Shown here: positions 1 to 13,194 of the stretch, one piece after another | How the letters are laid out: every line of letters begins with the position of its first letter | Position numbering within the stretch: the stretch's first letter is position 1 | Assembly (NCBI GenBank): GCA_016202915.1 | Contig: JACQNT010000049.1 | Location: 1-22,675, forward strand | Length of the DNA: 22,675 bases | Origin: Acidobacteriota bacterium | Lineage (GTDB): Bacteria > Acidobacteriota > Polarisedimenticolia > Gp22-AA2 | Reading direction: 5' to 3' | Program-made: the position numbers and the translations under genes | The notes under the pieces: model-generated | Seen by the model: only the letters and a program-made list of their open reading frames with translations | What the model was told of the DNA's origin: nothing | Database searches by the model: none

Positions 1-675
1 AGGGGGGAGTCGCACTACAAGGGCGGCGACTACGCCTCGGCGTCGCGCTACTTGGCGGCCGAGGTGGACCTGCATCCCGAGCGCTTCTACCCGTCCTACC
101 TGCTCGGCCTGGCGCTCTGGAAGGAGGGGCGGCTCGAGGATTCGATTGCCGCGCTGCATCGCGCCGCCCTGATCGACCCCGCCTCGGTGAAGGCCCAGGT
201 GAACCTAGGTCGCGTCCTCAACGACGCCGGACGCTTCGAGGAGGCGCTCGCCGCCGCGACGGAGGCGAGCGCGCTCGACCCGGAGGACTCGGCCGCGCTC
301 AACGTAAAGGGACGCGCCCTGCTCACCGGCGGCCGTCGCGAGGAGGCGATCGCCTCGTTCCGATCCGCGGTCGAGAAGGATCCGGGCAACGCCTACGCCC
401 TCAACAACCTGGGGTACGCGCTGATCGGCGACGGGCGTCATGCGGAGGCGGTGCCGCATCTCGAGGAGGCGGTGCGGATCCGTCCCGGTGTCGGCTACTT
501 CCACAACAACCTCGGCATGGCCTACGAGAGGACGGGCCGCAGGGAGGAGGCGAGGGAGGAGTACCGGAAGGCGGTCGAGGCCGGTGGATCCGAGGCCGCC
601 GCGAAAAACCTCGCGCGGCTCGAGGCGATTGCCGGCGCCGGGGAAACGACGGTCCGGGACGCGGCCGAGGAATGA
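1..675 (+). CDS. TPR-repeat protein, C-terminal part (5' end outside the window)
   Basis: Frame 1 is open from base 1 with no upstream stop. Repeated 34-aa TPR-like units (AYALNNLGYAL..., GYFHNNLGMAYERTGRREEAREEYRKAVE). Stop at 673-675. Confidence 0.7.
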   Translation, partial: RGESHYKGGDYASASRYLAAEVDLHPERFYPSYLLGLALWKEGRLEDSIAALHRAALIDPASVKAQVNLGRVLNDAGRFEEALAAATEASALDPEDSAALNVKGRALLTGGRREEAIASFRSAVEKDPGNAYALNNLGYALIGDGRHAEAVPHLEEAVRIRPGVGYFHNNLGMAYERTGRREEAREEYRKAVEAGGSEAAAKNLARLEAIAGAGETTVRDAAEE

Positions 676-1076: not shown

Positions 1077-2504
1077 CTACCGGCCGGTCGAGACCGTGGC
1101 GAGGGGCGCCGGCCGCTGCGTGCCGTTCAGCAGCACGTAGAACAGGTTGTCCTGGAAGCCGCGGTTGGCCGGAAGCAGCCCGTGCGACTCGCAGAAGAAA
1201 AAGGTCGAGGCGAAGTCGGTCCGGCCGCCCGTCGCCGCGGGCGCGCCAGCCGGGCCGTCCACGTCGATCGCCAGCAGCGACCGGGCCGTCACGCTCCCGT
1301 CGCCGGGCGAGAACATCAGGGCCTCGATCGGCCCGGGGCCGCGGTCGGGCGAGGCCCTGGCTTCGAACAGCGTCACCGGCCCCTCGGGGGTCTGCTTCAG
1401 GATCACCCGGTCGAGGGTCGGGACGCAGTCGGAGCCGAACAGATGGATCGGGACCGGCGAAGCGCGCCCCGCGTCCCGGTCCAGGGCGCCCCGGAAGGCG
1501 CGCGCGCGGTCCAGGGCGGCCTGCAGGAAGCGCTGCATGCGCGCCGGGTCCCCGGGCTCCGTCCGGGACCTGGGGTCGAAGACCGACCAGCGGTTCCTCA
1601 CCCAGGCCGCGGCGTCGTAAAGATCGGCCTCGAGGGGCCGGCCCTCCGGATCGATGAACCGCCGGCCGCCCGTGGGCAGGAGCTGGTAGATGGAGGGCAT
1701 GGTGAACAGCGCCTGCCGCGCCAGGGCCCGGGAGAACCCGGTGTGCAGGATCTTGAAGGCGGACATCGCGCCCCGGCGCGGCGTGCCGATCAGGACGATC
1801 CTGCCGAGGTCGGCCGCGCCGGCGTACGTGACCGGATGCTCCTTCCCGTCGCCGGTCACGTCCCTGCCGCCGTACTTCATGTAGTAGTCCGCCACCAGCC
1901 CGCCCATGCTGTGCGCCACGATGTCGAAGCGCAGGGCCGGGTTCTTGAAGCGTGACTTGATCCGCTCGATGGCGCGCCCCAGGCCGATGGCCGCCTCGAT
2001 GTTGTCGCGGCGCCAGTCGTAGTAATAGACGAAGCAGGTGTCCCCCGGCCGCGGGTCGTTGATGTCGCCGATCCGGTAGCGGCCCACCTCGCGCAGCGCC
2101 TCCAGGATCGCGCCGTAGAACTTCACCCCGACGAACGTCTCGTAGATGTCGTAGGGGACCAGGTTGTCCCGGTTCTCCTGGATCGGCAGGCGATCGATCG
2201 GCAGGCTCAGATCGTCGAGCCGGTCGCGCTTGAGGAGGCTGAGCAGGCGTCCCCAGACCGATTCGTTGGTGTGGCGGTTGCGCAGCTTCGATCCCAGGAA
2301 GCCCGGGATCACGATGACCGGGTTGCGGGGCATGGCGGCCGATTCCTGGTGGATGCGGGCCATGTCGTACCGGCCGAACACCGCGCACTGCAGGACCGAT
2401 GCGGCCGCGAGCAGCGCCGCGAGCAGGAGGCCCAGGCCGACCCGCGGCGAGGGCGCCGGGCGGCCGGTGGGTGGCGCCGGGCTTCCGGGTGAGGCAGTGG
2501 CCAT
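1077..2504 (-). CDS. Secreted alpha/beta-hydrolase, LCAT/PGAP1-like lipase/acyltransferase family
   Basis: ATG at 2504 (the track ORF starts at an upstream TTG). GGGGAG RBS. N-terminal signal peptide (VGLGLLLAALLAAASV). PGFLGS motif and nucleophile elbow AHSMGG (GxSxG). Roughly 150-aa C-terminal extension. Confidence 0.8.
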   Translation of the reverse strand: MATASPGSPAPPTGRPAPSPRVGLGLLLAALLAAASVLQCAVFGRYDMARIHQESAAMPRNPVIVIPGFLGSKLRNRHTNESVWGRLLSLLKRDRLDDLSLPIDRLPIQENRDNLVPYDIYETFVGVKFYGAILEALREVGRYRIGDINDPRPGDTCFVYYYDWRRDNIEAAIGLGRAIERIKSRFKNPALRFDIVAHSMGGLVADYYMKYGGRDVTGDGKEHPVTYAGAADLGRIVLIGTPRRGAMSAFKILHTGFSRALARQALFTMPSIYQLLPTGGRRFIDPEGRPLEADLYDAAAWVRNRWSVFDPRSRTEPGDPARMQRFLQAALDRARAFRGALDRDAGRASPVPIHLFGSDCVPTLDRVILKQTPEGPVTLFEARASPDRGPGPIEALMFSPGDGSVTARSLLAIDVDGPAGAPAATGGRTDFASTFFFCESHGLLPANRGFQDNLFYVLLNGTQRPAPLATVSTGR

Positions 2505-2571
2505 CGTGTCCGCTCCCCTGATGCAAGGGTGAAATCCGGCGGGACAACGGGCAGGCCGCCGCGGGGAGGCA

Positions 2572-2600
2572 AATATAGGTTTCGGCGGGGACACATTCAA
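2572..2600 (-). promoter_or_regulatory. Candidate promoter TTGAAT-17-TATATT for the lipase gene
   Basis: On the minus strand, -35 TTGAAT (plus 2595-2600) and -10 TATATT (plus 2572-2577) with a 17-nt spacer. About 60-nt leader to the ATG at 2504. Confidence 0.45.
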
Positions 2601-2660
2601 CGCGCGTGCCGGCCGGCGCGTGCGGAGACGCCGGCCCGGACGGGCCGGCCCGAGCGCGGT

Positions 2661-4763
2661 CTAGCGGGAGGGGGCGGAGCCGGCCGGTTCGAGGGGGAAC
2701 TTTCCGGAGTACCTGAGCATCTGCATGGTCAGGTCGGAGGCGTACTCGATCCGGGCGTCGATCACCTCGCCGGCAGCGTCCCGGACCGGCACCACGTCGG
2801 GCATCACGAAGGCCACGTAGGAAGGGATGCCGGCGCGCTCGGCGCGCCCGACGACCTCGTCCCGCAGGGCGGGAGCGATGCGGATGGCGAACCGCTCCAT
2901 CAGGTCCCGGGCGGCCGCGAAGTCCCCCTCCCCCTTGATCCTCTGGACCTCGGCCAGGAGGTCGGCCACACCCCGGCGCATGGCGGCGATGTCCTTCACC
3001 CGCATGTAGGTCCTGCCGTCCCGGCGGACCCGCTCCACCGCCCCGGTCACCTCGCGCAGGTGGCCGACGATCAGGTGGATCGCCCGCATGTGGTCGTCCT
3101 CGAGGACCTCCCCCTGGCGGATCCTCCGCAGCATGTAGAGATCGTCGGTCGCATAGTCCCGGTACGCCGCCTCGGCGACCTCCGCCGAGCGGACCGCGCC
3201 GATCTCGACCAGCTTCGGATCGAAGAAGTGGTGCAGGGCGATCAGCTCCGCGCGGGCCTCCTCCAGCGCGGAGTAGTGCTCCCGGAGATGGTCCCGGGGA
3301 TCTCCCTGGAGAGCGTCGCTGACCTTGCCGGAGGCGTGGCCGAGGACCTCGTGCATCGCCGTGTGCAGGAGGGCGATGTCGGCGCCGTGCGCCTCCTGGA
3401 GCGGGCGGTCCTCCGGGAGGAAGAACTCCGCCACCTTCCTGGAGCGCGCCGCCCGCTCCGCGGAGTCCATCACGTTGACGAGCGACACGCTCTTGTTGCC
3501 GTGGCGCTCCCTGATCGCCTCCTCGTTCGGCAGGTTGATGCCAACCGGGGGCATCGGGCCGCTGTCCCCGACGGCGACCAGGACGTTCACGGCGTTGGCG
3601 ATCGGGATGTTGAATTCCTTCCTCGTGTAGCGCTCGTCCCACGGGGCGCGGTCCTCGAAGTACCGGGCCAGGCCGGCGAGGTCCTTCTGGATCCGGTTCA
3701 TGCGGCGATCCACGAAATAGACCAGGCCCTCGAACGCCCCCTTCTGGCCGCGCGGGTCCTTGTACGTCTCGATGAACCCGTTGACCGTGTCGACGGGCGC
3801 GTCGTGCCGCACCCAGGCGATGTTGTAGCGCCGGAACGCCTCCGGATCGCCGCCGGCGAAGTAGTCGATGAGGCGCCCCAGGATCGCCGCCTGGGCGGGG
3901 TCCGCGAAGGCGCGGGCCTTCTCCAGGAAGCCGATCGCCGTCTGCAGCTCCGCGGCGTAGCGGCCGGGAGGGACCTCCGCGCCGGCGCCGGAGGCGCCGC
4001 CGGCCCGGCGGCCGGCCCGGTACACCTCCTCGACCACGGAGCCGCCGCGCTTCACCAGCCGGGAGTTGAGCGCGTGCCTCTCGTCGAAGCCGCGCAGATC
4101 ATCGAGGGTGACCCCGGCGTGGAAATTCACGCTGCTGCAGGTCAGGATGTCCTGCCCCGGCTGCGGCGTCTTGCAGGTCGACAGGGGCTCGAAATCGGGG
4201 TCGAAGATCGCGCGCCGCAGGCGGGCGAGCTTCGCCTGGAGCGACTCGCCGAGCGCCAGGCGGATGCGCGCCCCGTCGCGCACGGCGGCCCTGGCGGCCC
4301 CCTCGAGCTGCTCGAAGGTGAGCTCCGGGACGAACTTTCTTCGCGTCCGGTCGTTGTGGTTGCCGTTGTTGATCCAGTACAGCTTCAAGTATTGATGCAG
4401 GGCCTCGCGGACGTCCCCGGGGATCTCCCGCGGGTGGGTCAGGATCTCCTCCAGGAGATCGCGCACCTCCAGGCCGTCCCGCCCCATCTGGTCGTAGAAG
4501 ATGTCGCGCCCGGCGATGGCCGCCCGGCAGAGGTAGTAGGCGAGCGCCCTCTCGCGGGGCGACAGGTCCTCGAAGCCGTCGGCGTACAGGCGCGCCACGG
4601 CGAACTCCCCGACCGTCTCGAGGAGATACAGGCGGGTATCAGGCTCTGTGGCGGATCGGTCCATGGTCCTGGTGCCGGTGTCCGGGCAGGCGACCGTGAC
4701 AAGAGCCGTGGCCAGGCTGCATGCCAGGATGCGCGCCCCCGGCGTGGAGTCGTGCCGTTTCAT
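2661..4763 (-). CDS. Dipeptidyl-peptidase III (M49 family zinc metallopeptidase)
   Basis: 700 aa with ATG at 4763. The two M49 signature motifs HEVLGH (HExxGH) and EEARAE (EExRAE) are present. N-terminal hydrophobic signal, possibly a lipoprotein (ACS/VAC). Confidence 0.85.
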   Translation of the reverse strand: MKRHDSTPGARILACSLATALVTVACPDTGTRTMDRSATEPDTRLYLLETVGEFAVARLYADGFEDLSPRERALAYYLCRAAIAGRDIFYDQMGRDGLEVRDLLEEILTHPREIPGDVREALHQYLKLYWINNGNHNDRTRRKFVPELTFEQLEGAARAAVRDGARIRLALGESLQAKLARLRRAIFDPDFEPLSTCKTPQPGQDILTCSSVNFHAGVTLDDLRGFDERHALNSRLVKRGGSVVEEVYRAGRRAGGASGAGAEVPPGRYAAELQTAIGFLEKARAFADPAQAAILGRLIDYFAGGDPEAFRRYNIAWVRHDAPVDTVNGFIETYKDPRGQKGAFEGLVYFVDRRMNRIQKDLAGLARYFEDRAPWDERYTRKEFNIPIANAVNVLVAVGDSGPMPPVGINLPNEEAIRERHGNKSVSLVNVMDSAERAARSRKVAEFFLPEDRPLQEAHGADIALLHTAMHEVLGHASGKVSDALQGDPRDHLREHYSALEEARAELIALHHFFDPKLVEIGAVRSAEVAEAAYRDYATDDLYMLRRIRQGEVLEDDHMRAIHLIVGHLREVTGAVERVRRDGRTYMRVKDIAAMRRGVADLLAEVQRIKGEGDFAAARDLMERFAIRIAPALRDEVVGRAERAGIPSYVAFVMPDVVPVRDAAGEVIDARIEYASDLTMQMLRYSGKFPLEPAGSAPSR

Positions 4764-4793
4764 CGAACCCCCGGTTGAAGCTGAGGGCGCATG

Positions 4794-4799
4794 ATTATA
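4794..4799 (-). promoter_or_regulatory. Perfect -10 hexamer TATAAT (minus strand) about 30 nt upstream of the DPP3 start
   Basis: Plus-strand attata at 4794-4799. A possible TTGCCA -35 lies inside the 3' end of the upstream protease gene, but the spacer is too long, so the -35 assignment is uncertain. Confidence 0.3.
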
Positions 4800-4830
4800 G
4801 AGGATCGGCGCGGGAGGGTGGCTGGCAAGG

Positions 4831-6345
4831 CTACAGGGCGTCCGTGGCGCTCAGGATCCCGCCCAGGTACAGTTCCCGCTTCTCTCCCGCCCGGGCGCGG
4901 AGGCGCACGCCGATGAAGAAGTCGAATTCGGAATACGCGCTCTGCAGGAGGCGCTCGAGCCCCTCGATGTCCTTGACCTGTCGCCAGCGGGCGGTGTCTC
5001 GCTCAGCCCGCTCGAGATCCTTCTTGACGAGAAGGCTCTGGAGCAGATCACCCGGCGCCACCTTTTCCGCCGCCGCCTCCGATCCGGGGAGCACCCTGGT
5101 GACCATCAGGCCCGACGAGCCGCGCGGCGCGATCTCGAACCCGCCGTAGAACCGGAGCAAATCGGCTCCCTCCAGACGGGGACGGTCCGGCCGGAGCGCC
5201 AGGGTGACCGGGACCGTGAGGCGCTCCCGGGCCCGGGCGATCTCGATGCTCCAGGCCTCGTCCGGCCTGGCGCCGAGGAGCCTGGCGTGGACCCGGGCGG
5301 TCGAGAGATCCTCGTCCCCCTGGATCTTCAGCAGGCCGTCGCCGCGGCGCAGGCCGGCCCGGGCGGCGGGGCTCCCCGGGAACACGTTCTCGATAACCCG
5401 GCGCACCTCGGATGGCAGGGAGTACGTGGAGCGGGTCTCCGGATCGGCGGCGATGGTGTGGATGCCGATCCAGGGACGCCCTGGCCGCCCGGCGCGGATC
5501 CAGGCCAGGGCCCTCTCGATCCATTCGAGCGGAATGGACCAGCGGACGCCGATGTCCGGTCCCATGATCATGTGGCGGCCGACCGGCAGGGCCGTGCTCA
5601 TGCCGACCAGTTTCCCCGCGTCGTCGATCATCGGCCCTCCCGCGAACCCCGCGGGCAGTGAGGCATCGGTCTGGATGTAGTCCTCGATCGGATGAATCCT
5701 CTGGCCTCCGCGGTGCAGGCCGCTGACTACGCCCGCCGACGAGGACAGCTCATGCGCCGCCAACCCGCCGGAAGGGAAGCCCAGGGCGTTCAGCGACTCT
5801 CCCAGTCGCAGGGGGCCCCTGCGCCGCTCCAGCGGCGGCACCTGCTTGAGGTCGGCCTCAAGGAGCGCCACGCCGATGAGCGGGTCCATGCCGATCACCC
5901 GCGCCGGGACGCCGCGGCCGTCCAGGGAGCGCAGGGACACCTCCCTGGCGCCGTTCAGCAAGCCGGCGTCGCTGACGAATTCGCCCGGGGCGATGGCGAA
6001 GGCGCTCCCGAGGATCGACCCGACCTCGACCGACTCGCCGTAAACGATGGCCCCGAAGGCCGAGGTCAACTGCTTGTCGTGCACCGCCGTCAGCTGCACG
6101 ACCGACCGCCGGGCACCCGGACGGTCTGCCGCCTGGACGGCCGGCCCGGCCGGCGCGGCGCCGACCTTGCGGCCGCAGCGGGTGCAGAAGGCGGCACCAG
6201 GCTCAGTGGGGGCGCCGCAGGCCGGGCAGCGATCGTGGGAAGCCACGGGGGGCTCGGCGGTTGCGGGGGGTTCGGCTGCGACGGGAGCGGCCAGCCACGC
6301 CGCCAGCACCAGGAGGAGAGCGAGGGAGCGTCGTCGCGTCATCAT
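4831..6345 (-). CDS. HtrA/DegP-like pseudo-protease with N-terminal C4 zinc-ribbon and PDZ domain (triad His->Gly, Asp->Gly, Ser->Ala)
   Basis: 504 aa. Signal peptide MMTRRRSLALLLVLAAWLAAPVAA. Zinc-ribbon CPACG-x10-CTRCG. Trypsin-fold core aligns with the upstream active paralog, but the triad positions read SDAGL (His lost), GVALL (Asp lost) and GFAGGP (Ser lost). PDZ-like C-terminal region. ATGA start/stop overlap with the upstream gene at 6345. Confidence 0.85.
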   Translation of the reverse strand: MMTRRRSLALLLVLAAWLAAPVAAEPPATAEPPVASHDRCPACGAPTEPGAAFCTRCGRKVGAAPAGPAVQAADRPGARRSVVQLTAVHDKQLTSAFGAIVYGESVEVGSILGSAFAIAPGEFVSDAGLLNGAREVSLRSLDGRGVPARVIGMDPLIGVALLEADLKQVPPLERRRGPLRLGESLNALGFPSGGLAAHELSSSAGVVSGLHRGGQRIHPIEDYIQTDASLPAGFAGGPMIDDAGKLVGMSTALPVGRHMIMGPDIGVRWSIPLEWIERALAWIRAGRPGRPWIGIHTIAADPETRSTYSLPSEVRRVIENVFPGSPAARAGLRRGDGLLKIQGDEDLSTARVHARLLGARPDEAWSIEIARARERLTVPVTLALRPDRPRLEGADLLRFYGGFEIAPRGSSGLMVTRVLPGSEAAAEKVAPGDLLQSLLVKKDLERAERDTARWRQVKDIEGLERLLQSAYSEFDFFIGVRLRARAGEKRELYLGGILSATDAL

Positions 6346-7952
6346 CAGTAGACCGGCGGGGCAAGAAGGTCGGGAAGGAGGCTGAAGTAGGTGCGCCGTT
6401 CGGGTTTGCCGTCCTCGGTACGGACCTCCAGGGGCACGATGTAGGCGGAGCTCGCCACCGTGCCCTTCTGACCGTCCATCTCCCCGAAGATGTGGCCGTT
6501 CTCCGAGCGGATGATGTCCCGGAAGGTGTCGAAGCGGCGAACGTGCCTGCTGTAAACCCGCACGATGGTGTCGCCGTTCTTGTATCCCGCCTCGGCGCCC
6601 CGCCCCCCGGGGACCAGATCCTTGATCAGGAGGCCGTGCCGCGAGGTCGGCCCGGTCGTCACCTCGACGAGGTTGGCCTGCAGGGCCTCCCTGATTTCAT
6701 CGACCGGGTCGAGCAGAATGCGGTCCGGGCGCGTGCCGGGCGCGACCGCGGCGTCCGTCTCCTGTCCGGCACGCAGGAGTGTGAGCCCCAGGGGCGGGCT
6801 GCCAGGCGAGGCGGCGAGCAGGCGTGCCCCGGCCTCGGCCACCGTCGCCACCTTCTGTCCCCGCACCGCGAGGATGATGTCGCCGGGACGCACACCGGAT
6901 GACTCGGCGGGCGAGCCGGGAACGACGTACGCGACCAGCGGCTGCGTGACGGCCGGTTCGAGACCGAACCGGGCGCGCTGGCGATCATCCGGCGCCACCA
7001 ACCCCATGCCGAAATAGACCCTCTGGGGACGGGTCTTGTGGGACATGATCTCGACCATCGGGCCGACATCGCCGGCCGGCACGGCGTAGGCCAGGCTGGG
7101 GCTGGGTCCGCCGAGCAGGGTCCCTGCCAGGCCGCCGCGCAGATCGATGAGCGGGCCGCCGGTGCATCCTCCCGGCAGGGTGTGATCGGTCCGCAGGAGG
7201 TTCTCGAAGGCGACGAGGCTGGTGCCGGACTGTCCCGTCGCCGTGATCCGGCCGCGGTGCAGCGACTGCGGAAGGTAGTGGACGAGATCCTCCTCCATCG
7301 CGACGGGGTAGCAGATCGCCCAGGCTCCTTCACCCGTCGCGGGTTCGGATTCGGCCGGCTGCAGGGGCGCCGACCCCTGGAGATCGGCCCGCAGCAGGCC
7401 GATGCCGGAGGGGATGTCATAGCCCAGGATCTCGGCGGCGACGAGCCGGTTGTTGTAGGTGCGGACCTGCGGCGCGCTCGCCCGCTCGAGTACGCGGGCG
7501 GAGGTGACGAAGAGGCCCGGGCCGCCGTAGGAGAAGGCGGTCGCGAAGGCCTTGTGCCTGCCCGGCTTGAAGTCCATCAGGCGGTACCGGGTGATGAGCC
7601 TCTGCAGATCCGTCGGCAGGAGTTCCTTCGGATTGAGATCGTCCTTGACCACCACGAGCCCGACGACTGAGCGGCTGATCGCTTCCAGGCGACGGGCGGC
7701 CTCCGGCCCGGTCAGAGTGCGGAGGTCCCAGCCGCAGCTGGCGCAGTGGCGCCAGGCGCCGTCGCACCGGTAGCCGCACCGGGGGCAAATCCTCTGCGCG
7801 GTCGCCGGCCGGGCGGCGCCCTCGGGCGGGAGGGCAGGAGGCGCCGGACCCGCCGGCACCGGCAGCCCGGCCAGCGCGCCCGCCACGACGCCGGCGCTGA
7901 GCAGCGCCATCAACCACAGGAGAGTCTCAGAGGACGATCGCCCAGGACTCAT
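6345..7952 (-). CDS. HtrA/DegP-like pseudo-protease with N-terminal zinc-ribbon and PDZ domain (triad His->Arg, Asp->Gly, Ser->Thr)
   Basis: 535 aa. Hydrophobic N-terminus, zinc-ribbon CPRCGYRCDGAWRHCASCG. TSARV where TNAHV is expected, GIGLL where DLALL is expected, and GCTGGP where GNSGGP is expected. Two PDZ-like segments. The start at 7952 overlaps the stop of the upstream gene by 26 nt; an alternative ATG lies at 7910. Confidence 0.85.
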   Translation of the reverse strand: MSPGRSSSETLLWLMALLSAGVVAGALAGLPVPAGPAPPALPPEGAARPATAQRICPRCGYRCDGAWRHCASCGWDLRTLTGPEAARRLEAISRSVVGLVVVKDDLNPKELLPTDLQRLITRYRLMDFKPGRHKAFATAFSYGGPGLFVTSARVLERASAPQVRTYNNRLVAAEILGYDIPSGIGLLRADLQGSAPLQPAESEPATGEGAWAICYPVAMEEDLVHYLPQSLHRGRITATGQSGTSLVAFENLLRTDHTLPGGCTGGPLIDLRGGLAGTLLGGPSPSLAYAVPAGDVGPMVEIMSHKTRPQRVYFGMGLVAPDDRQRARFGLEPAVTQPLVAYVVPGSPAESSGVRPGDIILAVRGQKVATVAEAGARLLAASPGSPPLGLTLLRAGQETDAAVAPGTRPDRILLDPVDEIREALQANLVEVTTGPTSRHGLLIKDLVPGGRGAEAGYKNGDTIVRVYSRHVRRFDTFRDIIRSENGHIFGEMDGQKGTVASSAYIVPLEVRTEDGKPERRTYFSLLPDLLAPPVY

Positions 7953-9537
7953 CGAAGGCCACCGAAGTCAAGGGATACTGGTCCTCTCCGCAATGGATCG
8001 CCGCGGCGAATCGCCCGCCCAGGTAGGCCCGTCCCAGGGCGCGGCGCAGGTCGTCGAGACCGCCGACCTGCACGACCCCGGGCAGCTTCTTGTAATCGAC
8101 AAGATCGATCCAGGTATCGGGCCAGTCCTGCGCCGGCAGTACGCTCGTGAGGCGGCAGCCGTCCGACAGCCCGTACTTGCGGGCCACGCTGAATTCGTCG
8201 GTCATCCGCAGAGTCACGCCCTTCCCGCCCGGCTCCTCCTCGACGCGCACCATCAGATACCGTGCCAGGTCAAGGATCGGGTCGATGCGGGGTTCCTCCG
8301 GGCGCGCGACGGTCGTCACCGGAAGCTCCAGGACCTGGCCGGTGCGGTCCAGGGTCATGCGCAGGCTCACCCCAGGTCCGACACTGGCGACCGCCTCCTG
8401 GAGGAGGTACGTGGCGGCGGCCTCGCGGCCGTTGATGCCAAAGAGGACATCTCCCGGGTTGAACCCGGCCCCCGCTGCGGGCGATCCCGCCAGGACCGAC
8501 TCGACCACCGAGCCTGTGGCCCGCTTCACCGTGAACCGCTGGAGGGCCTCCGCATCGACCGGGCGGACCTGGACCCCCAGGAATCCCCGCTCGTAAGTGC
8601 CCCGCTGCCGCAGGCGCTCCATCACCAGACGGGCCATCTTCGAGGGGATTGAGTAGCCCTGCCCCTTGGCCTGGTGGAAGCCCATGTTGCTCACCCCCAC
8701 GACCCGTCCCAGCAGGTCCACGAGGGGCCCGCCGCTGTTGCCGCCGGTGATGGAGGCGTCGGAGTGCAGGAAGTTCTCCACCTGCTGGAGGCCGGTGCGC
8801 AGCCGCGTCATGCTGGAGATCGTCCCCCGGGTAACCGAGATGCCGAGGTCGAGTGGATTGCCGATCGCCCAGGTCTCCTCGCCGAGGCGGACTTGGTCCG
8901 AATCACCCCAGGTGAGCGGGGGAATCGAGCCCGAATCGATCTTGAGGAGCGCCAGGTCGCTGGCGCGGTCGATCCCCAGGACGCGGGCGGGGAAGCTGCG
9001 GCCGTCCTGCGTTTCGACGGTCAGCCGGGCCTGGGTTCCGAAAGGGCTGGCGACGTGGGCGTTGGTGACGATCTCGCCGTCCGGAGAGACGGCGAACCCG
9101 GATCCCGCCAGACGGCCCTCGTCGTCGAAGGATTCGAGCCTGCCCTTGTAGCCCCGCAGGCGGGTCGAACGCTCGATCACCGGGTACCTCAGCTTCGCGG
9201 CCGCCTTGACCCGGACCCGGACGACCGAGCGGGTGGCGCGGCGGACCGTCTCCTGGATCTCCCCGGCCGACAGTGTCTCGGGAGCCCGCAGGAAGCCGCC
9301 CGCGTAGCGAACCGGATCGATGGCAGGGAGCGGACTGCCGTCCTTGAGGCAGAAGCGGCTGCCGGCGCGGTTCTGCGCCCCGCAGACCGGGCAGAAGACG
9401 GAGGCCGAGTCACGGACCGGCTGCAGTTGCGCGGAGCCGGAGTCCGGTTCCTGCGCCGGCCCGATGTCCGTCGCCGGGAGCAGCAGCATCGCCGCGATCG
9501 GCGTCGCGTTGCGCCATGAGGATCGTCGGGTGTGCAT
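7927..9537 (-). CDS. HtrA/DegP-family serine endoprotease with intact catalytic triad, N-terminal 3-Cys ribbon-like motif and PDZ domain
   Basis: ATG at 9537 with a GGGAGA RBS. The longer GTG (9684) and ATG (9672) starts would overlap the divergent OPT promoter. Catalytic motifs TNAHV (His), DLALLKI (Asp) and GNSGGP (Ser) are present. CPVCG-x10-C follows the signal peptide. PDZ: GFLGVQV...GDVLFGINGR. Confidence 0.85.
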   Translation of the reverse strand: MHTRRSSWRNATPIAAMLLLPATDIGPAQEPDSGSAQLQPVRDSASVFCPVCGAQNRAGSRFCLKDGSPLPAIDPVRYAGGFLRAPETLSAGEIQETVRRATRSVVRVRVKAAAKLRYPVIERSTRLRGYKGRLESFDDEGRLAGSGFAVSPDGEIVTNAHVASPFGTQARLTVETQDGRSFPARVLGIDRASDLALLKIDSGSIPPLTWGDSDQVRLGEETWAIGNPLDLGISVTRGTISSMTRLRTGLQQVENFLHSDASITGGNSGGPLVDLLGRVVGVSNMGFHQAKGQGYSIPSKMARLVMERLRQRGTYERGFLGVQVRPVDAEALQRFTVKRATGSVVESVLAGSPAAGAGFNPGDVLFGINGREAAATYLLQEAVASVGPGVSLRMTLDRTGQVLELPVTTVARPEEPRIDPILDLARYLMVRVEEEPGGKGVTLRMTDEFSVARKYGLSDGCRLTSVLPAQDWPDTWIDLVDYKKLPGVVQVGGLDDLRRALGRAYLGGRFAAAIHCGEDQYPLTSVAFDESWAIVL

Positions 9538-9568
9538 GGGGGTCTCCCGATGGCCGAGGATGCGCCAC

Positions 9569-9598
9569 ATTCTATGGGAACCGGACGCGCGGCCGCAA
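9569..9598 (-). promoter_or_regulatory. Candidate promoter TTGCGG-18-TAGAAT for the protease operon
   Basis: Minus-strand -35 (plus 9593-9598) and -10 TAGAAT (plus 9569-9574). About 25-nt leader to the ATG at 9537. Confidence 0.4.
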
Positions 9599-9634
9599 CG
9601 CCCCGCGGCCCCACAATCGCCGGGACGCCGTCCG

Positions 9635-9663
9635 TTGACACCTCCGGGGGGCTGAGGTAAAGT
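9635..9663 (+). promoter_or_regulatory. Candidate promoter TTGACA-17-TAAAGT for the OPT transporter
   Basis: Consensus -35 TTGACA at 9635-9640 and -10 TAAAGT at 9658-9663. About 90-nt 5'UTR before GGAGAGG and the ATG at 9759. Confidence 0.5.
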
Positions 9664-9758
9664 CCCGCGCATCGCACGACGCACCCCGCACCTGGATTTC
9701 GAGCTGTCCGCACCGGCGCATGAGGATCAACAGCAGCAAGGATCGAGACTGAGGAGAG

Positions 9759-11771
9759 GTGGGCATGCGAACCGAATCGCGAGCGGGCGCGGCGACCGCG
9801 GAGAAGGCGTTCCGGCCGTTCGTCGCCGACACGGCCACGGTCAAGGAGTTCACCCCCAAGGCGGTCCTCCTGGGCGCCTTCTTCGCCGTCCTGTTCGGCG
9901 CGGCCACCGTCTACCTGGCGCTCCGGGCCGGCGTCACGGTCAGCGCCTCCATCCCGATCGCCGTCCTGGCGATCGCCGTGTTCAAGAGGATCGGCTCGAC
10001 CATCCTGGAGAACAACATCGTCCAGACGATCGGATCGGCTGGGGAGTCGGTGGCGGCCGGGGTCGTGTTCACCGTCCCGGCCTTCCTCTTCCTGGCCTCG
10101 GCCGCCGGCGGGGAGCGCTTCTTCAAGTACTGGCCGATCCTGATGCTGTCGATGGCGGGCGGATTCCTGGGCGTCCTTTTCATGGTCCCGCTCCGGCGCA
10201 GTCTCATCGTGCAGGAGCACGGCGTCCTGCCGTACCCGGAGGGGACTGCCTGCGCCGAGGTGCTGGTCGCGGGCGAGCGGGGTGGCGCCATGGCCCGGAT
10301 GGTCTTCAACGGGCTGTGGATGGCGATGATCTACAAGCTGTTCAACACCGTCCTCGGCTTCTTCAAGGAGGTTCCATCCTACGTCACGGGGAGGAGCGCC
10401 CCCCTTCCCAACGCGACCGTAAACGCCGAGATCGTCCCGGAGTACCTGGGGGTCGGATACATCATCGGGCCGCGGGTGGCGGGGATCATGGTGTCAGGGA
10501 GCATCCTGGGGTGGGTGGCCCTGACGCCGCTCCTGTCGCTGTTCGTCAGCGAGCAGCAGCTCCACGACCAGCTGCGCTCCCTGGGCTTCACGCAGGGCTG
10601 GATCGACACGCACGGGCTCAACGAGCAGTTCTACCGCGGCTACGTCCGCCTGATCGGCGCGGGGGCGGTGGCGATGGCCGGGATCATGACGCTGGCGAGG
10701 ACGCTGCCGACGATCTGGTCGGCGTTCCGCGCCAGCGTCCGGAGCCTCGGCGGCGGGACCGGAGGCGGGGTGATGGCGCGGCGCACCGAGAGGGACATCC
10801 CGATGTCGGTCGTGCTGGGCGGCTCCGCCGTGCTGGTCCTGGTGATCGCCCTGTTCATGCCGGGCCTGCCGACCCGCTTCCCGGGAAGCCTCCTGCTGGC
10901 GTTGCTCATCGTCGCCTTCGGGTTCTTCTTCGTCACCGTCTCGTCGCGCATCGTCGGCATCATCGGATCGACCAGCAACCCGATCTCCGGGATGACGATC
11001 GCCACGCTGATGGGGACCTGCATGTTCTTCATCCTGATCGGATGGGCCGGGGACGTGTACCAGACCGCCGCCCTGGTCGTGGGCGCCATCGTGTGCATCG
11101 CCGCGGCCAACGCCGGCGCCACCTCGCAGGATCTCAAGACGGGGTACATCGTCGGCGCCACCCCCTGGCTGCAGCAGATCGGCCTGGTGATCGGCGTCTT
11201 CGCGTCGGTGTTCGCCATCGGCGGCACGCTGTTCCTGATGCACCACTCGGGCTACGGGCCGATTGGATCCGACAAACTGCCGGCGCCCCAGGGGACCCTC
11301 ATGGCGACGCTCATCCAGGGGATCCTCGGCCAGAACCTCCAGTGGGGCTTCGTGTTCGTCGGGGCGGCGCTCGCCGTGATGGTGCAGGTCATGGGGATTT
11401 CCTCCCTGGCCTGGGCCGTCGGCGCCTACCTGCCGCTCTCGACCACGATGCCGATCTTCATCGGGGGGATGATGCGGCTCATCGCCGAGAGGGTGGGCGG
11501 CAAGAGGGAGGAGTCGGAGGTCTCATCCGGGATGCTCTACAGCACCGGCCTGGTCGCGGGAGGATCGATCGGCGGCGTCCTGATCGCGGCCCTGTCGGCC
11601 GCCCCCTGGGGCGAGGGGAATCTCCTGGAGGTCGTCAACATCGGCCACCGCTGGCGCATCGTGGCGATGCAGGGGGTGGCCGCCGACCTGATCGCCCTCG
11701 CCGTCTTCGGGTTCCTGTGCCTCCTCCTCCTGCGGGCCGCGAGGAAGAAGATCGAGGGGATGGAGGCCTGA
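9759..11771 (+). CDS. OPT-family oligopeptide transporter
   Basis: 670 aa with many TM helices. The N-terminal region FTPKAVLLGAFFAVLFGAATVYLALRAGVTVSASIPIAVLAIAVFKR is characteristic of bacterial OPT-family permeases. Strong RBS. Confidence 0.9.
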   Translation: MGMRTESRAGAATAEKAFRPFVADTATVKEFTPKAVLLGAFFAVLFGAATVYLALRAGVTVSASIPIAVLAIAVFKRIGSTILENNIVQTIGSAGESVAAGVVFTVPAFLFLASAAGGERFFKYWPILMLSMAGGFLGVLFMVPLRRSLIVQEHGVLPYPEGTACAEVLVAGERGGAMARMVFNGLWMAMIYKLFNTVLGFFKEVPSYVTGRSAPLPNATVNAEIVPEYLGVGYIIGPRVAGIMVSGSILGWVALTPLLSLFVSEQQLHDQLRSLGFTQGWIDTHGLNEQFYRGYVRLIGAGAVAMAGIMTLARTLPTIWSAFRASVRSLGGGTGGGVMARRTERDIPMSVVLGGSAVLVLVIALFMPGLPTRFPGSLLLALLIVAFGFFFVTVSSRIVGIIGSTSNPISGMTIATLMGTCMFFILIGWAGDVYQTAALVVGAIVCIAAANAGATSQDLKTGYIVGATPWLQQIGLVIGVFASVFAIGGTLFLMHHSGYGPIGSDKLPAPQGTLMATLIQGILGQNLQWGFVFVGAALAVMVQVMGISSLAWAVGAYLPLSTTMPIFIGGMMRLIAERVGGKREESEVSSGMLYSTGLVAGGSIGGVLIAALSAAPWGEGNLLEVVNIGHRWRIVAMQGVAADLIALAVFGFLCLLLLRAARKKIEGMEA

Positions 11772-11811
11772 CCCGGATCGCGCCCCCCGAGGCGCCTCCC
11801 TGCCTCACGAC

Positions 11812-13194
11812 GTGACCACGCTCCGCCGCGAGCTGCGGCTGTGGGACCTGGTCCTCCTGAACGTGGTCGCCATCACCGGCTTGAGGTGGTGGCTGACCTC
11901 GGCGGGAGGATACGGCTACGCCGCGCTGCCGCTGTGGGGGCTGGCGTTCCTGTGCTTCTTCGTCCCCTCCGGCCTCGCCGTCATCGACCTGACCACCCGC
12001 TACCCCGAGGAGGGGGGCATCTACGCCTGGACCAAGCGCGCCTTCGGCGACGGCCACGGGTTCATCTCCGGCTGGTGCCTGTGGACCAACAACCTGATCT
12101 ACTTCCCCCACTTATTGATCTTCACCGTCGGGAACTTCATCTTCATGCTCGGGCCGGAGCGGGCCAATCTGGAGGACAGCCCCCTGGTCATGATGGCGGC
12201 GTCGCTGCTCCTTTTCTGGATCGCCGTCTGGATGAACGTGCGGGGGCTGCGCTACGGCCGCTGGCTGAACAACCTCGGGGCGTTCGGCACCTGGGTCCCG
12301 GCGACGCTGCTCACCCTCCTGGGGGCCTGGGCGGTCGCGCGCTACGGGGCGGCCACGCCGTTCGCGGCGTCCGGCCTGGTCCCGGTGTTCAGCCTGGGGA
12401 CCGTGGCGTTCTTCGCGCAGATCTGCTTCGGCTACTCGGGCCTCGAGCTCGGATCGATGATGGGAGAGGAGATCGTCGAGCCGCGGAAGAACGTGCCCCG
12501 CGCCATCCTGATCGCCGGCGCGATCATCACCTTGATCTACATGCTCGGGACCGCGGCCCTGCTGTTCGCGCTGCCCCAGAGCGAGATCGGGATCCTGAGC
12601 GGCGTCGGCGTCGCCATCGCGGCGGTCCAGGAGAAGATGGGGCTCGGGTTCCTGGCGGGGATCTCGGCGCTGCTGATCGCCCTCGGGGGGATGGGGGGCG
12701 TCAGCGCCTGGCTGGCCGGATCGTCCCGGATCCCGTACGTCGCGGGGATCGATCGCTACCTGCCTGCGTCATTCGGCAGCGTCCACCCGCGCCGCGGATC
12801 GCCGCACGTCGCCCTGCTCGTCACCGGGGGCGTGTCGAGCCTGCTGATCGTGATGAGCTTCGCGGGGGCCGGCGTCAGGGAAGCCTACCTGCTCCTCGCC
12901 GACTTCACCATCGTCGTCTACTTCATCCCCTACCTCTACCTCTTCGCCGCCCTCATCCGGCTGGGCGTCCCCGGGACCGTCACGCCGGGCGTCATCCCCG
13001 TCCCGGGCGGGCGGCCCGCCACCATCCTGGTCGGCGCCGTGGGCTTCCTGACCACCGCCACGGCGATCCTCTTCGCCTTCAGCCCCCCCGAGGGGACCAA
13101 CCGCTGGGTCTTCGTCGGGAAGATCCTGGGCGGCTGCGTCCTCCTCCTGGTCCTGGGGTGGCTCCTCTACAGGCGCGGCCGCCGCGCGGCCTGA
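11812..13194 (+). CDS. APC-superfamily amino-acid permease
   Basis: 460 aa, about 12 TM segments. N-terminus LRRELRLWDLVLLNVVAITG is typical of the APC family. GTG start 40 nt after the OPT stop with no clear SD, so it is probably co-transcribed. Confidence 0.8.
   Translation: MTTLRRELRLWDLVLLNVVAITGLRWWLTSAGGYGYAALPLWGLAFLCFFVPSGLAVIDLTTRYPEEGGIYAWTKRAFGDGHGFISGWCLWTNNLIYFPHLLIFTVGNFIFMLGPERANLEDSPLVMMAASLLLFWIAVWMNVRGLRYGRWLNNLGAFGTWVPATLLTLLGAWAVARYGAATPFAASGLVPVFSLGTVAFFAQICFGYSGLELGSMMGEEIVEPRKNVPRAILIAGAIITLIYMLGTAALLFALPQSEIGILSGVGVAIAAVQEKMGLGFLAGISALLIALGGMGGVSAWLAGSSRIPYVAGIDRYLPASFGSVHPRRGSPHVALLVTGGVSSLLIVMSFAGAGVREAYLLLADFTIVVYFIPYLYLFAALIRLGVPGTVTPGVIPVPGGRPATILVGAVGFLTTATAILFAFSPPEGTNRWVFVGKILGGCVLLLVLGWLLYRRGRRAA

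What the first reader, a model, noticed from the sequence alone, without database searches (positions are those of the whole stretch)
2661..13194. Proteolysis-to-import locus: protease trio + DPP3 diverging from OPT oligopeptide and APC amino-acid permeases via a shared promoter hub
The 221-bp intergenic region 9538-9758 contains back-to-back sigma70-like promoters: TTGCGG-18-TAGAAT leftward and TTGACA-17-TAAAGT rightward.

Leftward: the HtrA-like trio, then an M49 dipeptidyl-peptidase III, which has its own perfect TATAAT.

Rightward: an OPT-family oligopeptide transporter and an APC amino-acid permease.

This is a coherent endoprotease -> dipeptidyl-peptidase -> peptide/amino-acid uptake cascade, arranged for co-regulation from one intergenic region.
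Basis: inference. Interest (0 to 1): 0.6.

Follow-up and report, generated by a model that had tools for sequence, protein, structure and literature searches.

The report
Peptide-uptake locus hosting HtrA-like cassette
In this uncultured acidobacterium, a conserved pair of operons for peptide trimming and peptide/amino-acid import has a separately movable three-gene operon between them, encoding one real and two catalytically dead HtrA-type proteases, so it is a neighbourhood of independent units and not one co-regulated proteolysis-to-import cascade.

Summary
Conservation in relatives supports all three far beyond chance.

(1) Only the first "protease" (A, 7927-9537) keeps the His/Asp/Ser catalytic triad. 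B and C have lost all three residues in every orthologue examined.

(2) A-B-C is a self-contained operon. B follows A in 47 of 48 loci and C follows B in 31 of 31. It carries its own promoter. It sits next to OPT in 12 of 44 loci that can be judged, and next to M49 in 9 of 26. Its phylogeny disagrees with that of its flanks.

(3) The conserved unit is the divergent pair OPT-APC | M49-LCAT-like. Relatives have this pair with no trio, or with other peptidase genes in the gap.

(4) There are at least three separate promoters. The spacing between the two divergent ones varies from 7 to about 62 nt, and I found no shared operator.

So a DPP III-OPT-APC peptide-scavenging neighbourhood is supported. 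A single hub driving an endoprotease-to-import cascade is not. The one-active, two-dead, zinc-ribbon HtrA trio is the unusual item here.

The parts
1077..2504 (-). LCAT-like alpha/beta-hydrolase gene with a signal-peptide-like N-terminus. A gene in this position follows M49 in relatives.
   Evidence: Pfam LCAT E 6.8e-5. The probable start is the ATG at 2504, preceded by GGGGAG. Homologues at 56-79% identity follow M49 in the loci compared. In the loci without the trio, a gene of 440-487 residues occupies this position; three of the five have a Pfam LCAT hit on record.
2572..2600 (-). Promoter-like TTGAAT-17-TATATT in the M49/LCAT-like intergenic region
   Evidence: Promoter scan. The same pattern ending in TATATT occurs in 5 of 14 related loci. 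The evidence is weak.
2661..4763 (-). M49 dipeptidyl-peptidase III gene, probably encoding an exported lipoprotein
   Evidence: Pfam PF03571, 152.6 bits against a cut-off of 21. HEVLGH and EEARAE motifs are present. In orthologues with a full N-terminus, a signal peptide ends in an L-A-[AG]-C lipobox.
4794..4799 (-). -10 element TATAAT of the M49 transcription unit
   Evidence: Read from the sequence. TATAAT or TATACT is conserved in all 11 aligned loci and in loci without the trio, L157-L160. There is no conserved -35 element.
4831..6345 (-). Gene C: DegP/DegQ-like pseudoprotease (signal peptide, zinc ribbon at residues 40-57, degenerate protease domain, PDZ)
   Evidence: Pfam. The triad positions read VSDAGL / GVALL / GFAGGP. 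His, Asp and Ser are replaced in all 11 orthologues. Best PDB sequence match is AlgW/DegQ, E 4e-29. The start overlaps the stop codon of B by 1 nt.
6345..7952 (-). Gene B: DegP/DegQ-like pseudoprotease (signal or anchor, zinc ribbon at residues 56-76, degenerate protease domain, PDZ1, PDZ2)
   Evidence: The triad positions read VTSARV / GIGLL / GCTGGP; the triad is lost in all 14 orthologues. AlphaFold2 model: pLDDT 85, pTM 0.80. Foldseek best match is DegP 3cs0, E 2e-28, over about 455 columns. The family is small and confined to one lineage. It overlaps gene A by 26 nt.
7927..9537 (-). Gene A: active HtrA-type serine protease (signal or anchor, Pro/Ala-rich linker, zinc ribbon CPVCG..RFCLKD at residues 49-66, protease domain, PDZ1, PDZ2-like domain)
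   Evidence: VTNAHV / SDLALL / GNSGGP are conserved in all orthologues. Best PDB match is DegQ, E 6e-47. AlphaFold2 model pLDDT 80. About 110 orthologue clusters at 49-63% identity.
9569..9598 (-). Promoter of the A-B-C operon, TTGCGG-18-TAGAAT
   Evidence: Read from the sequence. Conserved as TTGCnn-N17/18-TAnnAT in 15 of 15 block loci. A match to TTGNNN-N16-19-TANNAT occurs upstream of A in 49 of 56 loci whatever the neighbour (41 begin TTGC), against 1% of shuffles.
9635..9663 (+). Promoter of the OPT-APC operon, TTGACA-17-TAAAGT, with a GC-rich spacer
   Evidence: Promoter scan, 10 of 12 positions. The -35 element is invariant in all 15 aligned loci. It is also present in loci without the trio, L157-L160.
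9765..11771 (+). OPT-family oligopeptide transporter gene
   Evidence: Pfam OPT E 2.9e-87. TIGR00733 332 bits against a cut-off of 182.5. The ATG at 9765 and the GGAGAG Shine-Dalgarno sequence are conserved.
11812..13194 (+). APC-superfamily amino-acid permease gene, 40 nt downstream of OPT
   Evidence: AA_permease_2 E 4.9e-53. The nearest NCBIfam model is GadC-like but far below its cut-off, 222 against 650. It follows OPT in the related loci that extend far enough on that side.

Best explanation
The region is a composite of two modules that are conserved independently. It comprises at least three transcription units.

**Module 1: the conserved core.** This is the divergent pair [OPT-APC] and [M49 DPP III - LCAT-like hydrolase]. 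M49 is a probable lipoprotein. I infer that it trims dipeptides from oligopeptides outside the cytoplasm. I also infer that OPT and the APC permease import the peptides and amino acids. Each operon has its own sigma70-type promoter.

**Module 2: a self-contained A-B-C operon lying between them.** It has its own promoter. It encodes three paralogous DegP/DegQ-like proteins, each with a signal peptide or anchor, a zinc ribbon, a protease domain and PDZ domain(s); a second PDZ is modelled for A and B. Only A can be catalytic. B and C are conserved pseudoproteases.

The gene order is fixed, the genes overlap in a way that implies translational coupling, and HtrA proteins are built on trimers. From this I infer that A, B and C work as a hetero-oligomer in which B and C supply substrate binding or regulation to the single active subunit.

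**Shown:** gene identities, loss of the triad, conservation of order, conservation of the promoters, and the variable location of the trio.

**Inferred:** export, the substrates, the hetero-oligomer, and any nutritional role of the trio.
For: **The trio as a unit**
- Gene order is conserved: B follows A in 47 of 48 loci and C follows B in 31 of 31.
- The triad is kept in A and lost in B and C in every orthologue examined.
- A and B overlap by 23-26 nt in nearly all loci, and B and C overlap by 1 nt in the window.
- B has a full DegP/DegQ fold including both PDZ domains. A has the same architecture.
- The trio's promoter moves with it.

**Where the trio sits**
- It is adjacent to OPT in 12 of 44 loci and to M49 in 9 of 26. 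It is never adjacent to one without the other (8 both, 14 neither, 0 mixed).
- Elsewhere its neighbours are unrelated.
- OPT-APC | M49-LCAT-like lie directly back to back, with no trio, in L158, L159 and L160. In L157 other peptidase genes fill the gap. The same OPT promoter and M49 -10 element are present in all four.

**Separate histories**
- In situ replacement of OPT by a distant paralogue keeps an OPT gene at this position.
- The trio tree conflicts with location and with the flanks. Block-containing loci never form one side of a split (0 of 200 bootstraps). L156 groups with L011 and L080 sits inside a clade without the block, both at 100%.
- Window against L156: flanking genes are 79-86% identical, the trio genes only 50-55%.

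**Export of M49**
- Orthologues carry a lipoprotein-type signal sequence.
Against: - There is no expression, localisation or biochemical data of any kind. Everything rests on sequence comparison of metagenome assemblies.
- The hetero-oligomer is inferred only. B and C could act separately, for example as chaperones.
- Signal peptides and the lipobox were judged by eye and by regular expression, not with a trained predictor. The window's own M49 lipobox (VTVAC) is atypical.
- The trio is still found in the OPT|M49 gap in about a quarter to a third of lineages, spread across the trio tree. This leaves room for a real functional tie to peptide use.
- The neighbour-joining trees are simple, and deep branches are poorly resolved.
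Confidence: 0.62

Rival explanations
1. One co-regulated cascade is driven from the 9538-9758 hub: three HtrA endoproteases cut proteins, DPP III trims the products, and OPT and APC import them.
For: All the genes and both divergent promoters exist. The 8-gene block recurs with different outer flanks in the window, L073, L074, L080, L108 and L156.
Against: - Two of the three proteins lack the catalytic triad.
- M49 has its own conserved -10 element. The trio and OPT promoters are each conserved separately, at variable spacing, with no shared motif.
- The trio is absent from this position in 14 of 22 loci that can be fully judged. It is also absent in L158, L159 and L160.
- There is no riboswitch or structured leader.
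Confidence: 0.12
2. A looser functional link. The trio is transcribed separately but still belongs to peptide nutrition. A periplasmic or surface A-B-C complex generates oligopeptides that DPP III and OPT then use, and this is why selection keeps returning or retaining it in this gap.
For: - The trio lies in the gap in lineages scattered over its tree.
- The same gap holds other peptidases (tricorn-like S41 and M28) in L157.
- Peptidase genes are common near these loci: S9 in L074, M1 in L073 and L158, M28/M20 and M29 in L161.
Against: - Most trio loci have unrelated neighbours.
- From established knowledge, characterised HtrA/DegP/DegQ proteins act in envelope protein quality control and regulated proteolysis, not in bulk nutrient digestion.
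- If the gap is the ancestral position and the trio left it several times, the pattern is explained without any selection.
Confidence: 0.25
3. Pure historical synteny. Not even M49, OPT and APC are functionally linked; they are simply neighbours on a conserved chromosomal backbone.
For: The M49 side sits in a longer conserved run (LCAT-like, TPR, sigma54 regulator with its kinase, HU, ATP_bind_3) in L073 and L156-L160.
Against: - The genes beyond APC differ between loci, while OPT-APC stays beside M49.
- OPT was replaced by a distant paralogue at exactly this position.
- In a 52%-identical M49 locus, an OPT gene is still within 4 kb, together with M28/M20 and M29 peptidases.
Confidence: 0.1

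Closest known systems
Porphyromonas gingivalis dipeptide production and import (periplasmic DPPs plus POT/OPT transporters; PMC8048996)
   Same: Exopeptidases that release dipeptides are combined with oligopeptide transporters, including an OPT-family member, and an amino-acid transporter, as a route for using peptides as nutrients.
   Different: In P. gingivalis, DPP3 has no signal sequence and is considered cytoplasmic and not nutritional. Here the M49 orthologues carry lipoprotein-type signals. That paper describes a pathway, not a conserved divergent M49|OPT gene pair.
MamE / MamO of magnetotactic bacteria (active HtrA plus HtrA-like pseudoprotease; PMC4794232)
   Same: An active HtrA protease is encoded together with a paralogue that has a degenerate active site. 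That paralogue is retained and promotes the active partner's proteolysis through non-catalytic functions.
   Different: - MamO carries a TauE transporter domain and a di-histidine metal site, and it acts in magnetosome biomineralisation.
- Here there are two pseudoproteases, each with a zinc ribbon. B is modelled with two PDZ domains. There is no magnetosome context.
- MamE and MamO models score far below their cut-offs.
E. coli DegP/DegQ and Legionella DegQ
   Same: Protease domain followed by PDZ1 and PDZ2. These are the best sequence and fold matches for A, B and C.
   Different: - DegP and DegQ are homo-oligomers of active subunits.
- A, B and C all score below the degP_htrA_DO cut-off: 255, 104 and 129 bits against 416.
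- They also carry an N-terminal zinc ribbon that my limited literature search did not find described for HtrA proteins.
Arabidopsis Deg5-Deg8 complex (PMC4877387)
   Same: Two HtrA paralogues assemble into one hetero-oligomeric complex at 1:1 stoichiometry.
   Different: Those complexes are built from homo-trimers of two active proteases. [quoted passage not shown] A mixed assembly with one active and two dead paralogues would be a different arrangement.

Membership tests
HtrA / S1C serine proteases (gene A) | His-Asp-Ser catalytic triad in the TNxHV / D / GNSGGP motifs | tested here: met
   VTNAHV, SDLALL and GNSGGP are present in the window and in the aligned orthologues that cover each motif. 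H161, D194 and S268 are invariant among 27 sequences.
HtrA / S1C serine proteases (gene A) | Chymotrypsin-fold protease domain followed by at least one PDZ domain | tested here: met
   Pfam Trypsin_2 at residues 145-282 and PDZ at 316-408. AlphaFold2 model with protease, PDZ1 and a PDZ2-like domain. PDB match DegQ, E 6e-47.
HtrA / S1C serine proteases (gene A) | Score above the curated 'Do family' cut-off (TIGR02037) | tested here: not met
   254.7 bits against a cut-off of 416.2. A is a divergent member, not a standard DegP/DegQ/DegS.
HtrA / S1C serine proteases (genes B and C) | His-Asp-Ser catalytic triad | tested here: not met
   In B: His to Arg, Asp to Gly, Ser to T/L/S/P/N. In C: His to Gly or Ser, Asp to Gly, Ser mostly to Ala (also Thr or Ile). 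This holds in all 14 B and 11 C orthologues. They have the HtrA fold but are not proteases.
HtrA / S1C serine proteases (genes B and C) | DegP/DegQ-like fold (protease domain, PDZ1, PDZ2) | tested here: met
   B model pLDDT 85; Foldseek match to DegP 3cs0, E 1.8e-28. C matches AlgW/DegQ by sequence, E 4e-29. The structure of C was not modelled.
HtrA oligomers | Trimer as the basic unit; here proposed to be a mixed A/B/C assembly | not testable with these tools
   Only single-chain prediction is available. The support is indirect: fixed gene order and overlapping genes.
M49 dipeptidyl-peptidase III | Zinc-binding motifs HExxGH and EExR(K)AE, and a Pfam PF03571 score above the gathering cut-off | tested here: met
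   HEVLGH at 471-476 and EEARAE at 501-506. 152.6 bits against 21.
OPT oligopeptide transporter family | Curated family model TIGR00733 / PF03169 | tested here: met
   332.2 bits against 182.5; Pfam E 2.9e-87 over the full model. The substrate was not tested.
APC superfamily, GadC-type antiporter | Equivalog score for glutamate or glutamine / GABA antiporters | tested here: not met
   221.9 bits against a cut-off of 650. It is an APC permease (AA_permease_2, E 4.9e-53) of unknown specificity.
Divergent operon pair under one shared regulatory region | A conserved operator or fixed promoter geometry shared by both arms | tested here: not met
   The spacing between the two -35 elements ranges from 7 to about 62 nt, and nothing is conserved between them. 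Only chance-level repeats occur in the hub. Each promoter also occurs without the other.
Divergent operon pair under one shared regulatory region | Conservation of the divergent arrangement in relatives | tested here: inconclusive
   Trio|OPT holds in 12 of 44 loci. M49|OPT holds in all five further M49 orthologue loci examined at 62% identity or more, with or without genes in between.
Sigma70-type promoters | -35 and -10 hexamers at 16-19 nt spacing, conserved in position upstream of the gene | tested here: met
   OPT: TTGACA-17-TAAAGT, conserved in 15 of 15 loci and in loci without the trio. Trio: TTGCnn-18-TAnnAT, in 49 of 56 loci against 1% of shuffles. Transcription start sites cannot be tested here.

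The most novel reading that the evidence does not exclude
A, B and C assemble into an obligate mixed HtrA oligomer with one catalytic and two dead subunits. This could be a 1:1:1 trimer or cages built from such trimers. The N-terminal zinc ribbons and the conserved C-terminal tails (A ...DExWPIIL, B ...LAPPVY, C ...PTxAL) would mediate assembly or act as internal PDZ ligands. This would be an asymmetric, built-in regulated HtrA machine of a kind not described for bacteria. Separately, the operon's history differs from that of its flanking genes, so it has moved or been exchanged as a unit.
Probability: 0.3. Interest if true: 0.65.

Novelty: new variant of a known kind. Interest (0 to 1): 0.4.

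Why it matters
A tidy-looking functional 'cascade' on one stretch of DNA turns out to be two modules with separate histories, and two of the claimed enzymes are dead.

What remains is useful in two ways.

First, there is a conserved pairing of an exported-looking DPP III with OPT and APC transporters. This gives a testable hypothesis for peptide scavenging in a poorly known class of soil Acidobacteriota. It also bears on the function of bacterial OPT transporters, which are little characterised.

Second, there is a small, lineage-restricted HtrA variant with one active and two inactive paralogues, each carrying a zinc ribbon, in a fixed operon. If the three proteins form one complex, it would be a natural example of an asymmetric HtrA assembly. 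That would inform how pseudoenzyme subunits regulate oligomeric proteases.

Tried and rejected
- **Rfam.** At gathering thresholds on the whole window, and at E <= 1 on 9450-9850, nothing was found.
- **OPT leader.** The roughly 100-nt leader (9670-9770) folds no better than shuffled sequences, z = 0.27. A riboswitch or attenuator is rejected.
- **Shared operator in the hub.** Only short repeats at chance level and no conserved block between the promoters.
- **GC-rich dyad in the OPT promoter spacer.** It is enriched across loci (stems of 5 bp or more in 42% against 14% of shuffles). It is weak in the window itself and partly driven by base composition. I kept it as a side note, not a finding.
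- **Conserved partners of the trio outside the OPT/M49 gap.** Clustering of neighbouring ORFs found no family shared by more than 3-4 loci. Pfam contexts are unrelated.
- **Tree of A alone.** It was too poorly resolved. I replaced it with a concatenated A+B+C tree with bootstraps. A first bootstrap attempt timed out.
- **A -35 element for the M49 TATAAT.** None lies at 16-19 nt.
- **Wrong start coordinate for A.** 9538 gave stop codons. The ATG is at 9537.
- **Canonical membership for A, B and C.** Membership as DegP, DegQ, DegS, MamE or MamO was considered and rejected on curated cut-offs.

Full report
**What the window is.** The 22,675-bp window is 70% G+C. It is identical to a contig of an uncultured Acidobacteria genome bin: protein P0001 is 100% identical and sits on a 22,675-bp contig. 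Its nearest relatives are labelled Candidatus Polarisedimenticolia or Acidobacteriota.

Codon-position G+C and Pfam give this gene map:
- TPR protein, 1-675(+)
- LCAT-like hydrolase, 1077-2504(-)
- M49 peptidase, 2661-4763(-)
- three Trypsin_2/PDZ genes: C 4831-6345(-), B 6345-7952(-), A 7927-9537(-)
- OPT, 9765-11771(+)
- APC permease, 11812-13194(+)
- then DUF1579, SnoaL, LolA, an SPFH/TPR protein, a DedA-like protein, MutS and a STAS protein

This is ordinary chromosome, not a mobile element.

**Checking the observation.**
- M49 has HEVLGH and EEARAE motifs.
- OPT passes the curated TIGR00733 model.
- The permease is APC-superfamily, of unknown specificity.
- The rightward TTGACA-17-TAAAGT (9635-9663) is the only hub hit in a promoter scan. 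That scan found 3 sites in 12 kb against 0.5 expected.
- The leftward TTGCGG-18-TAGAAT is present at 9598..9569. It matches only 8 of 12 consensus positions, so it was not listed by the scan.
- TATAAT precedes M49 at 4799..4794, without a usable -35 element.

**Are the promoters real?** Conservation answers this better than consensus scores.
- In 15 loci with the same arrangement, the intergenic DNA is barely alignable except for two islands. One is TTGACA (invariant)-17/18-TA[G/C/A]A[G/T]T before OPT. The other is TTGCnn-17/18-TAnnAT before A.
- A pattern search finds exactly one such site in the 450 nt upstream of A in 49 of 56 loci, against 1% of shuffled sequences. This holds whether or not OPT is the neighbour.
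- The M49 -10 element is TATAAT or TATACT in all 11 aligned loci.
- Both the M49 -10 element and the OPT promoter are also present in loci that lack the trio.
- The two divergent -35 elements lie 7 to about 62 nt apart, with nothing conserved between them.
- The window's hub has only chance-level repeats, no Rfam match and an unstructured OPT leader.

The hub is therefore two independent promoters placed back to back. M49 has a third.

**Synteny around gene A.** Scans of genome and metagenome collections returned about 70 orthologous loci.
- B follows A in 47 of 48 non-redundant loci that have room for it. C follows B in 31 of 31.
- OPT is the divergent upstream neighbour in only 12 of 44 loci. 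M49 is downstream in 9 of 26.
- Where both sides can be judged, 8 loci have both, 14 have neither, and none is mixed.
- Outside the OPT/M49 gap the trio has unrelated neighbours: citrate synthase and a pseudouridine synthase, DUF3179 and a PQQ-like protein, a P-type ATPase.

**Synteny around M49.**
- Loci of M49 orthologues at 74%, 68% and 62% identity (L158, L159, L160) have APC-OPT directly divergent from M49. The LCAT-like gene follows M49, and there is no trio.
- L157 (71%) has an alpha/beta-hydrolase, a tricorn-like S41 peptidase, an M28 peptidase and a saccharopine dehydrogenase in the gap.
- L156 (86%) has the full block.
- Even at 52% identity (L161), an OPT gene lies 4 kb away, with M28/M20 and M29 peptidases nearby.
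- In the L074/L158 lineage the OPT gene is only 34-35% identical to the window's. The adjacent APC (73-74%) and M49 (73-74%) are orthologous, and the promoter is conserved. This is replacement by a paralogue in place.
- L074 and L158 share M49 at 91-92%, APC at 93% and OPT at 87%, yet only L074 has the trio.

The conserved unit is therefore OPT-APC | M49-LCAT-like. The trio is an optional occupant of the gap.

**The trio's history differs from that of its flanks.**
- In a concatenated A+B+C neighbour-joining tree (1,389 columns, 200 bootstraps), the 11 loci with the block never form one side of a split.
- L080 (block) is nested within ten loci without it, at 100% support. L156 (block) is sister to L011, which has no M49 downstream of C, also at 100%.
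- The window and L156 have the most similar flanks: M49 86%, LCAT-like 79%, OPT 82%, APC 80%. Their trio genes are only 50-55% identical, no closer than between the most distant pairs.
- Other pairs with similar flanks have much closer trios. L002/L108 have flanks at 92-96% and trio genes at 74-85%.

Either the trio has moved or been exchanged several times, or it left an ancestral position repeatedly. In both cases it behaves as a separate cassette.

**What the trio is.**
- A keeps VTNAHV / SDLALL / GNSGGP in all orthologues.
- B has His to Arg, Asp to Gly, and a variable residue at the serine position.
- C has His to Gly or Ser, Asp to Gly, and Ser mostly to Ala. These changes hold in all orthologues.
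- All three best match DegQ, DegP or AlgW by sequence, but lie below the curated cut-offs.
- The model of B (pLDDT 85) has a zinc ribbon (54-76), protease domain (96-303), PDZ1 and PDZ2. It matches DegP and DegQ over about 455 columns.
- The model of A (pLDDT 80) has the same layout.
- In A and B the N-terminus is a charged and then hydrophobic signal or anchor, followed by a Pro/Ala-rich linker and then the zinc ribbon. In A the ribbon reads CPVCG..RFCxKD; in B it reads CPRCGY..W..C..CGWD. C has a signal-peptide-like N-terminus and then a CxxC...CxxC ribbon.
- The A/B overlap of 23-26 nt is conserved and encodes B's conserved MxxGRSSSE start.
- The C-terminal tails of all three proteins are conserved.
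- The B family is tiny. There are 62 clusters at 90% identity, then a drop from 360 to 87 bits. Among 1.84 billion representative proteins there are only about five full-length representatives.

**Mechanism.**

Shown:
- three or more promoter-bearing units;
- one catalytic and two non-catalytic DegP/DegQ-like paralogues in a fixed, overlapping operon;
- a conserved divergent M49|OPT-APC pair.

Inferred from family knowledge:
- M49 is an exported lipoprotein. It would release dipeptides from oligopeptides, and OPT and the APC permease would import peptides and amino acids.
- A, B and C form a hetero-oligomer, since HtrA proteins are trimer-based. B and C would contribute PDZ- or zinc-ribbon-mediated binding or regulation.

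Whether the trio feeds peptide uptake is open. I put that at about 0.25.

**Comparison with what is known.**
- The peptide side resembles the DPP/POT/OPT scheme of P. gingivalis. DPP3 there is cytoplasmic (PMC8048996).
- The active-plus-dead pairing resembles MamE/MamO (PMC4794232).
- Hetero-oligomeric Deg complexes are known for plant Deg5/Deg8. These are built from homo-trimers of active enzymes (PMC4877387).
- My literature searches found no description of zinc-ribbon HtrA proteins or of a one-active, two-dead operon. The library is limited.

**Verdict.**
- Observation: confirmed.
- Interpretation: partly supported.
- The locus itself is an ordinary, if neat, peptide-utilisation neighbourhood.
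- The trio is a new variant of the HtrA theme.
- Interest: 0.4.

Noticed in passing
L074 7759-9738 and L158 7729-9783, compared with window 9765-11771: In one sub-lineage the OPT gene at this position is a different OPT subtype. It is 34-35% identical to the window's OPT and 55-56% to the OPT of L161. The adjacent APC, M49 and the OPT promoter remain orthologous.
   Followed up: partly
L157 2273-9892: In one relative, the gap between OPT and M49 holds an alpha/beta-hydrolase, a 1121-aa tricorn-like S41 peptidase, an M28 peptidase and a saccharopine dehydrogenase in place of the HtrA-like trio.
   Followed up: no
window 9641-9657, and the equivalent promoter spacers in 17 loci: The spacer of the OPT promoter carries a GC-rich dyad. 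Examples: L001 CACCCCGGGGTG, L125 GCCCCCGGGGGC, L080 GGTATACC. Stems of 5 bp or more occur in 42% of loci against 14% of shuffles. It is weak in the window itself (CCTCCGGGGGG). It could be an operator for OPT alone.
   Followed up: partly
window 7152-7169 and B residues 214, 232, 257, 263: The B family has invariant C214, H232, H257 (TDH where HtrA has TDA) and C263 (GCxGGP where HtrA has GNSGGP), clustered around the dead active site. This suggests a metal site or a disulfide, as in MamO's repurposed site. The geometry was not checked.
   Followed up: no
window 7927-7952, and the C-termini of A, B and C: The A/B overlap of 23-26 nt is conserved and encodes B's conserved N-terminal MxxGRSSSE motif. 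All three proteins end in conserved hydrophobic tails: A ..DExWPIIL, B ..FPDxLAPPVY, C ..LxPTxAL. These could be internal PDZ ligands.
   Followed up: partly
window 4664-4763 (M49 N-terminus): M49 orthologues carry a lipoprotein-type signal ending in L-A-[AG]-C. Many gene callers instead start at an internal Met about 10 residues before the conserved RPYLLE motif, so annotated lengths fall into two classes, about 651-665 and about 680-700 aa.
   Followed up: partly
window 2505-2660: The listed TTG start of the LCAT-like ORF (2600) is probably wrong. ATG 2504 with GGGGAG upstream fits the orthologue lengths. The 156-nt gap holds TTGAAT-17-TATATT (2600..2572), and the same pattern ending in TATATT recurs in 5 of 14 related loci.
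   Followed up: partly
L001 and L006 (contigs JBGPED010000070.1 and JBGPED010000124.1): One genome bin holds two trio loci, one in the OPT/M49 gap and one elsewhere. Their assembly coverages are 17x and 67x. Either one genome has two trios or the bin is chimeric.
   Followed up: no
L009 (DASRAU010000024.1), which matches L109: A 205-kb contig labelled Verrucomicrobiia carries a typical acidobacterial-type A-B-C trio. Its gene A region is the same as that of metagenome locus L109, which suggests a binning or labelling error.
   Followed up: no
L034, L037, L145, L146, L148, L150, L152, L154, L155: Other Acidobacteria loci show two adjacent HtrA-like protease-domain matches within about 1.7 kb on one strand. 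These may be tandem genes or proteins with two protease domains. They are unrelated to the trio family.
   Followed up: no
window 15181-17257: The LolA ORF (15181-16050, minus strand) overlaps the longest plus-strand ORFs of the SPFH/TPR gene (14962 or 15689 to 16968/17257). The true start of the plus-strand gene was not resolved.
   Followed up: no
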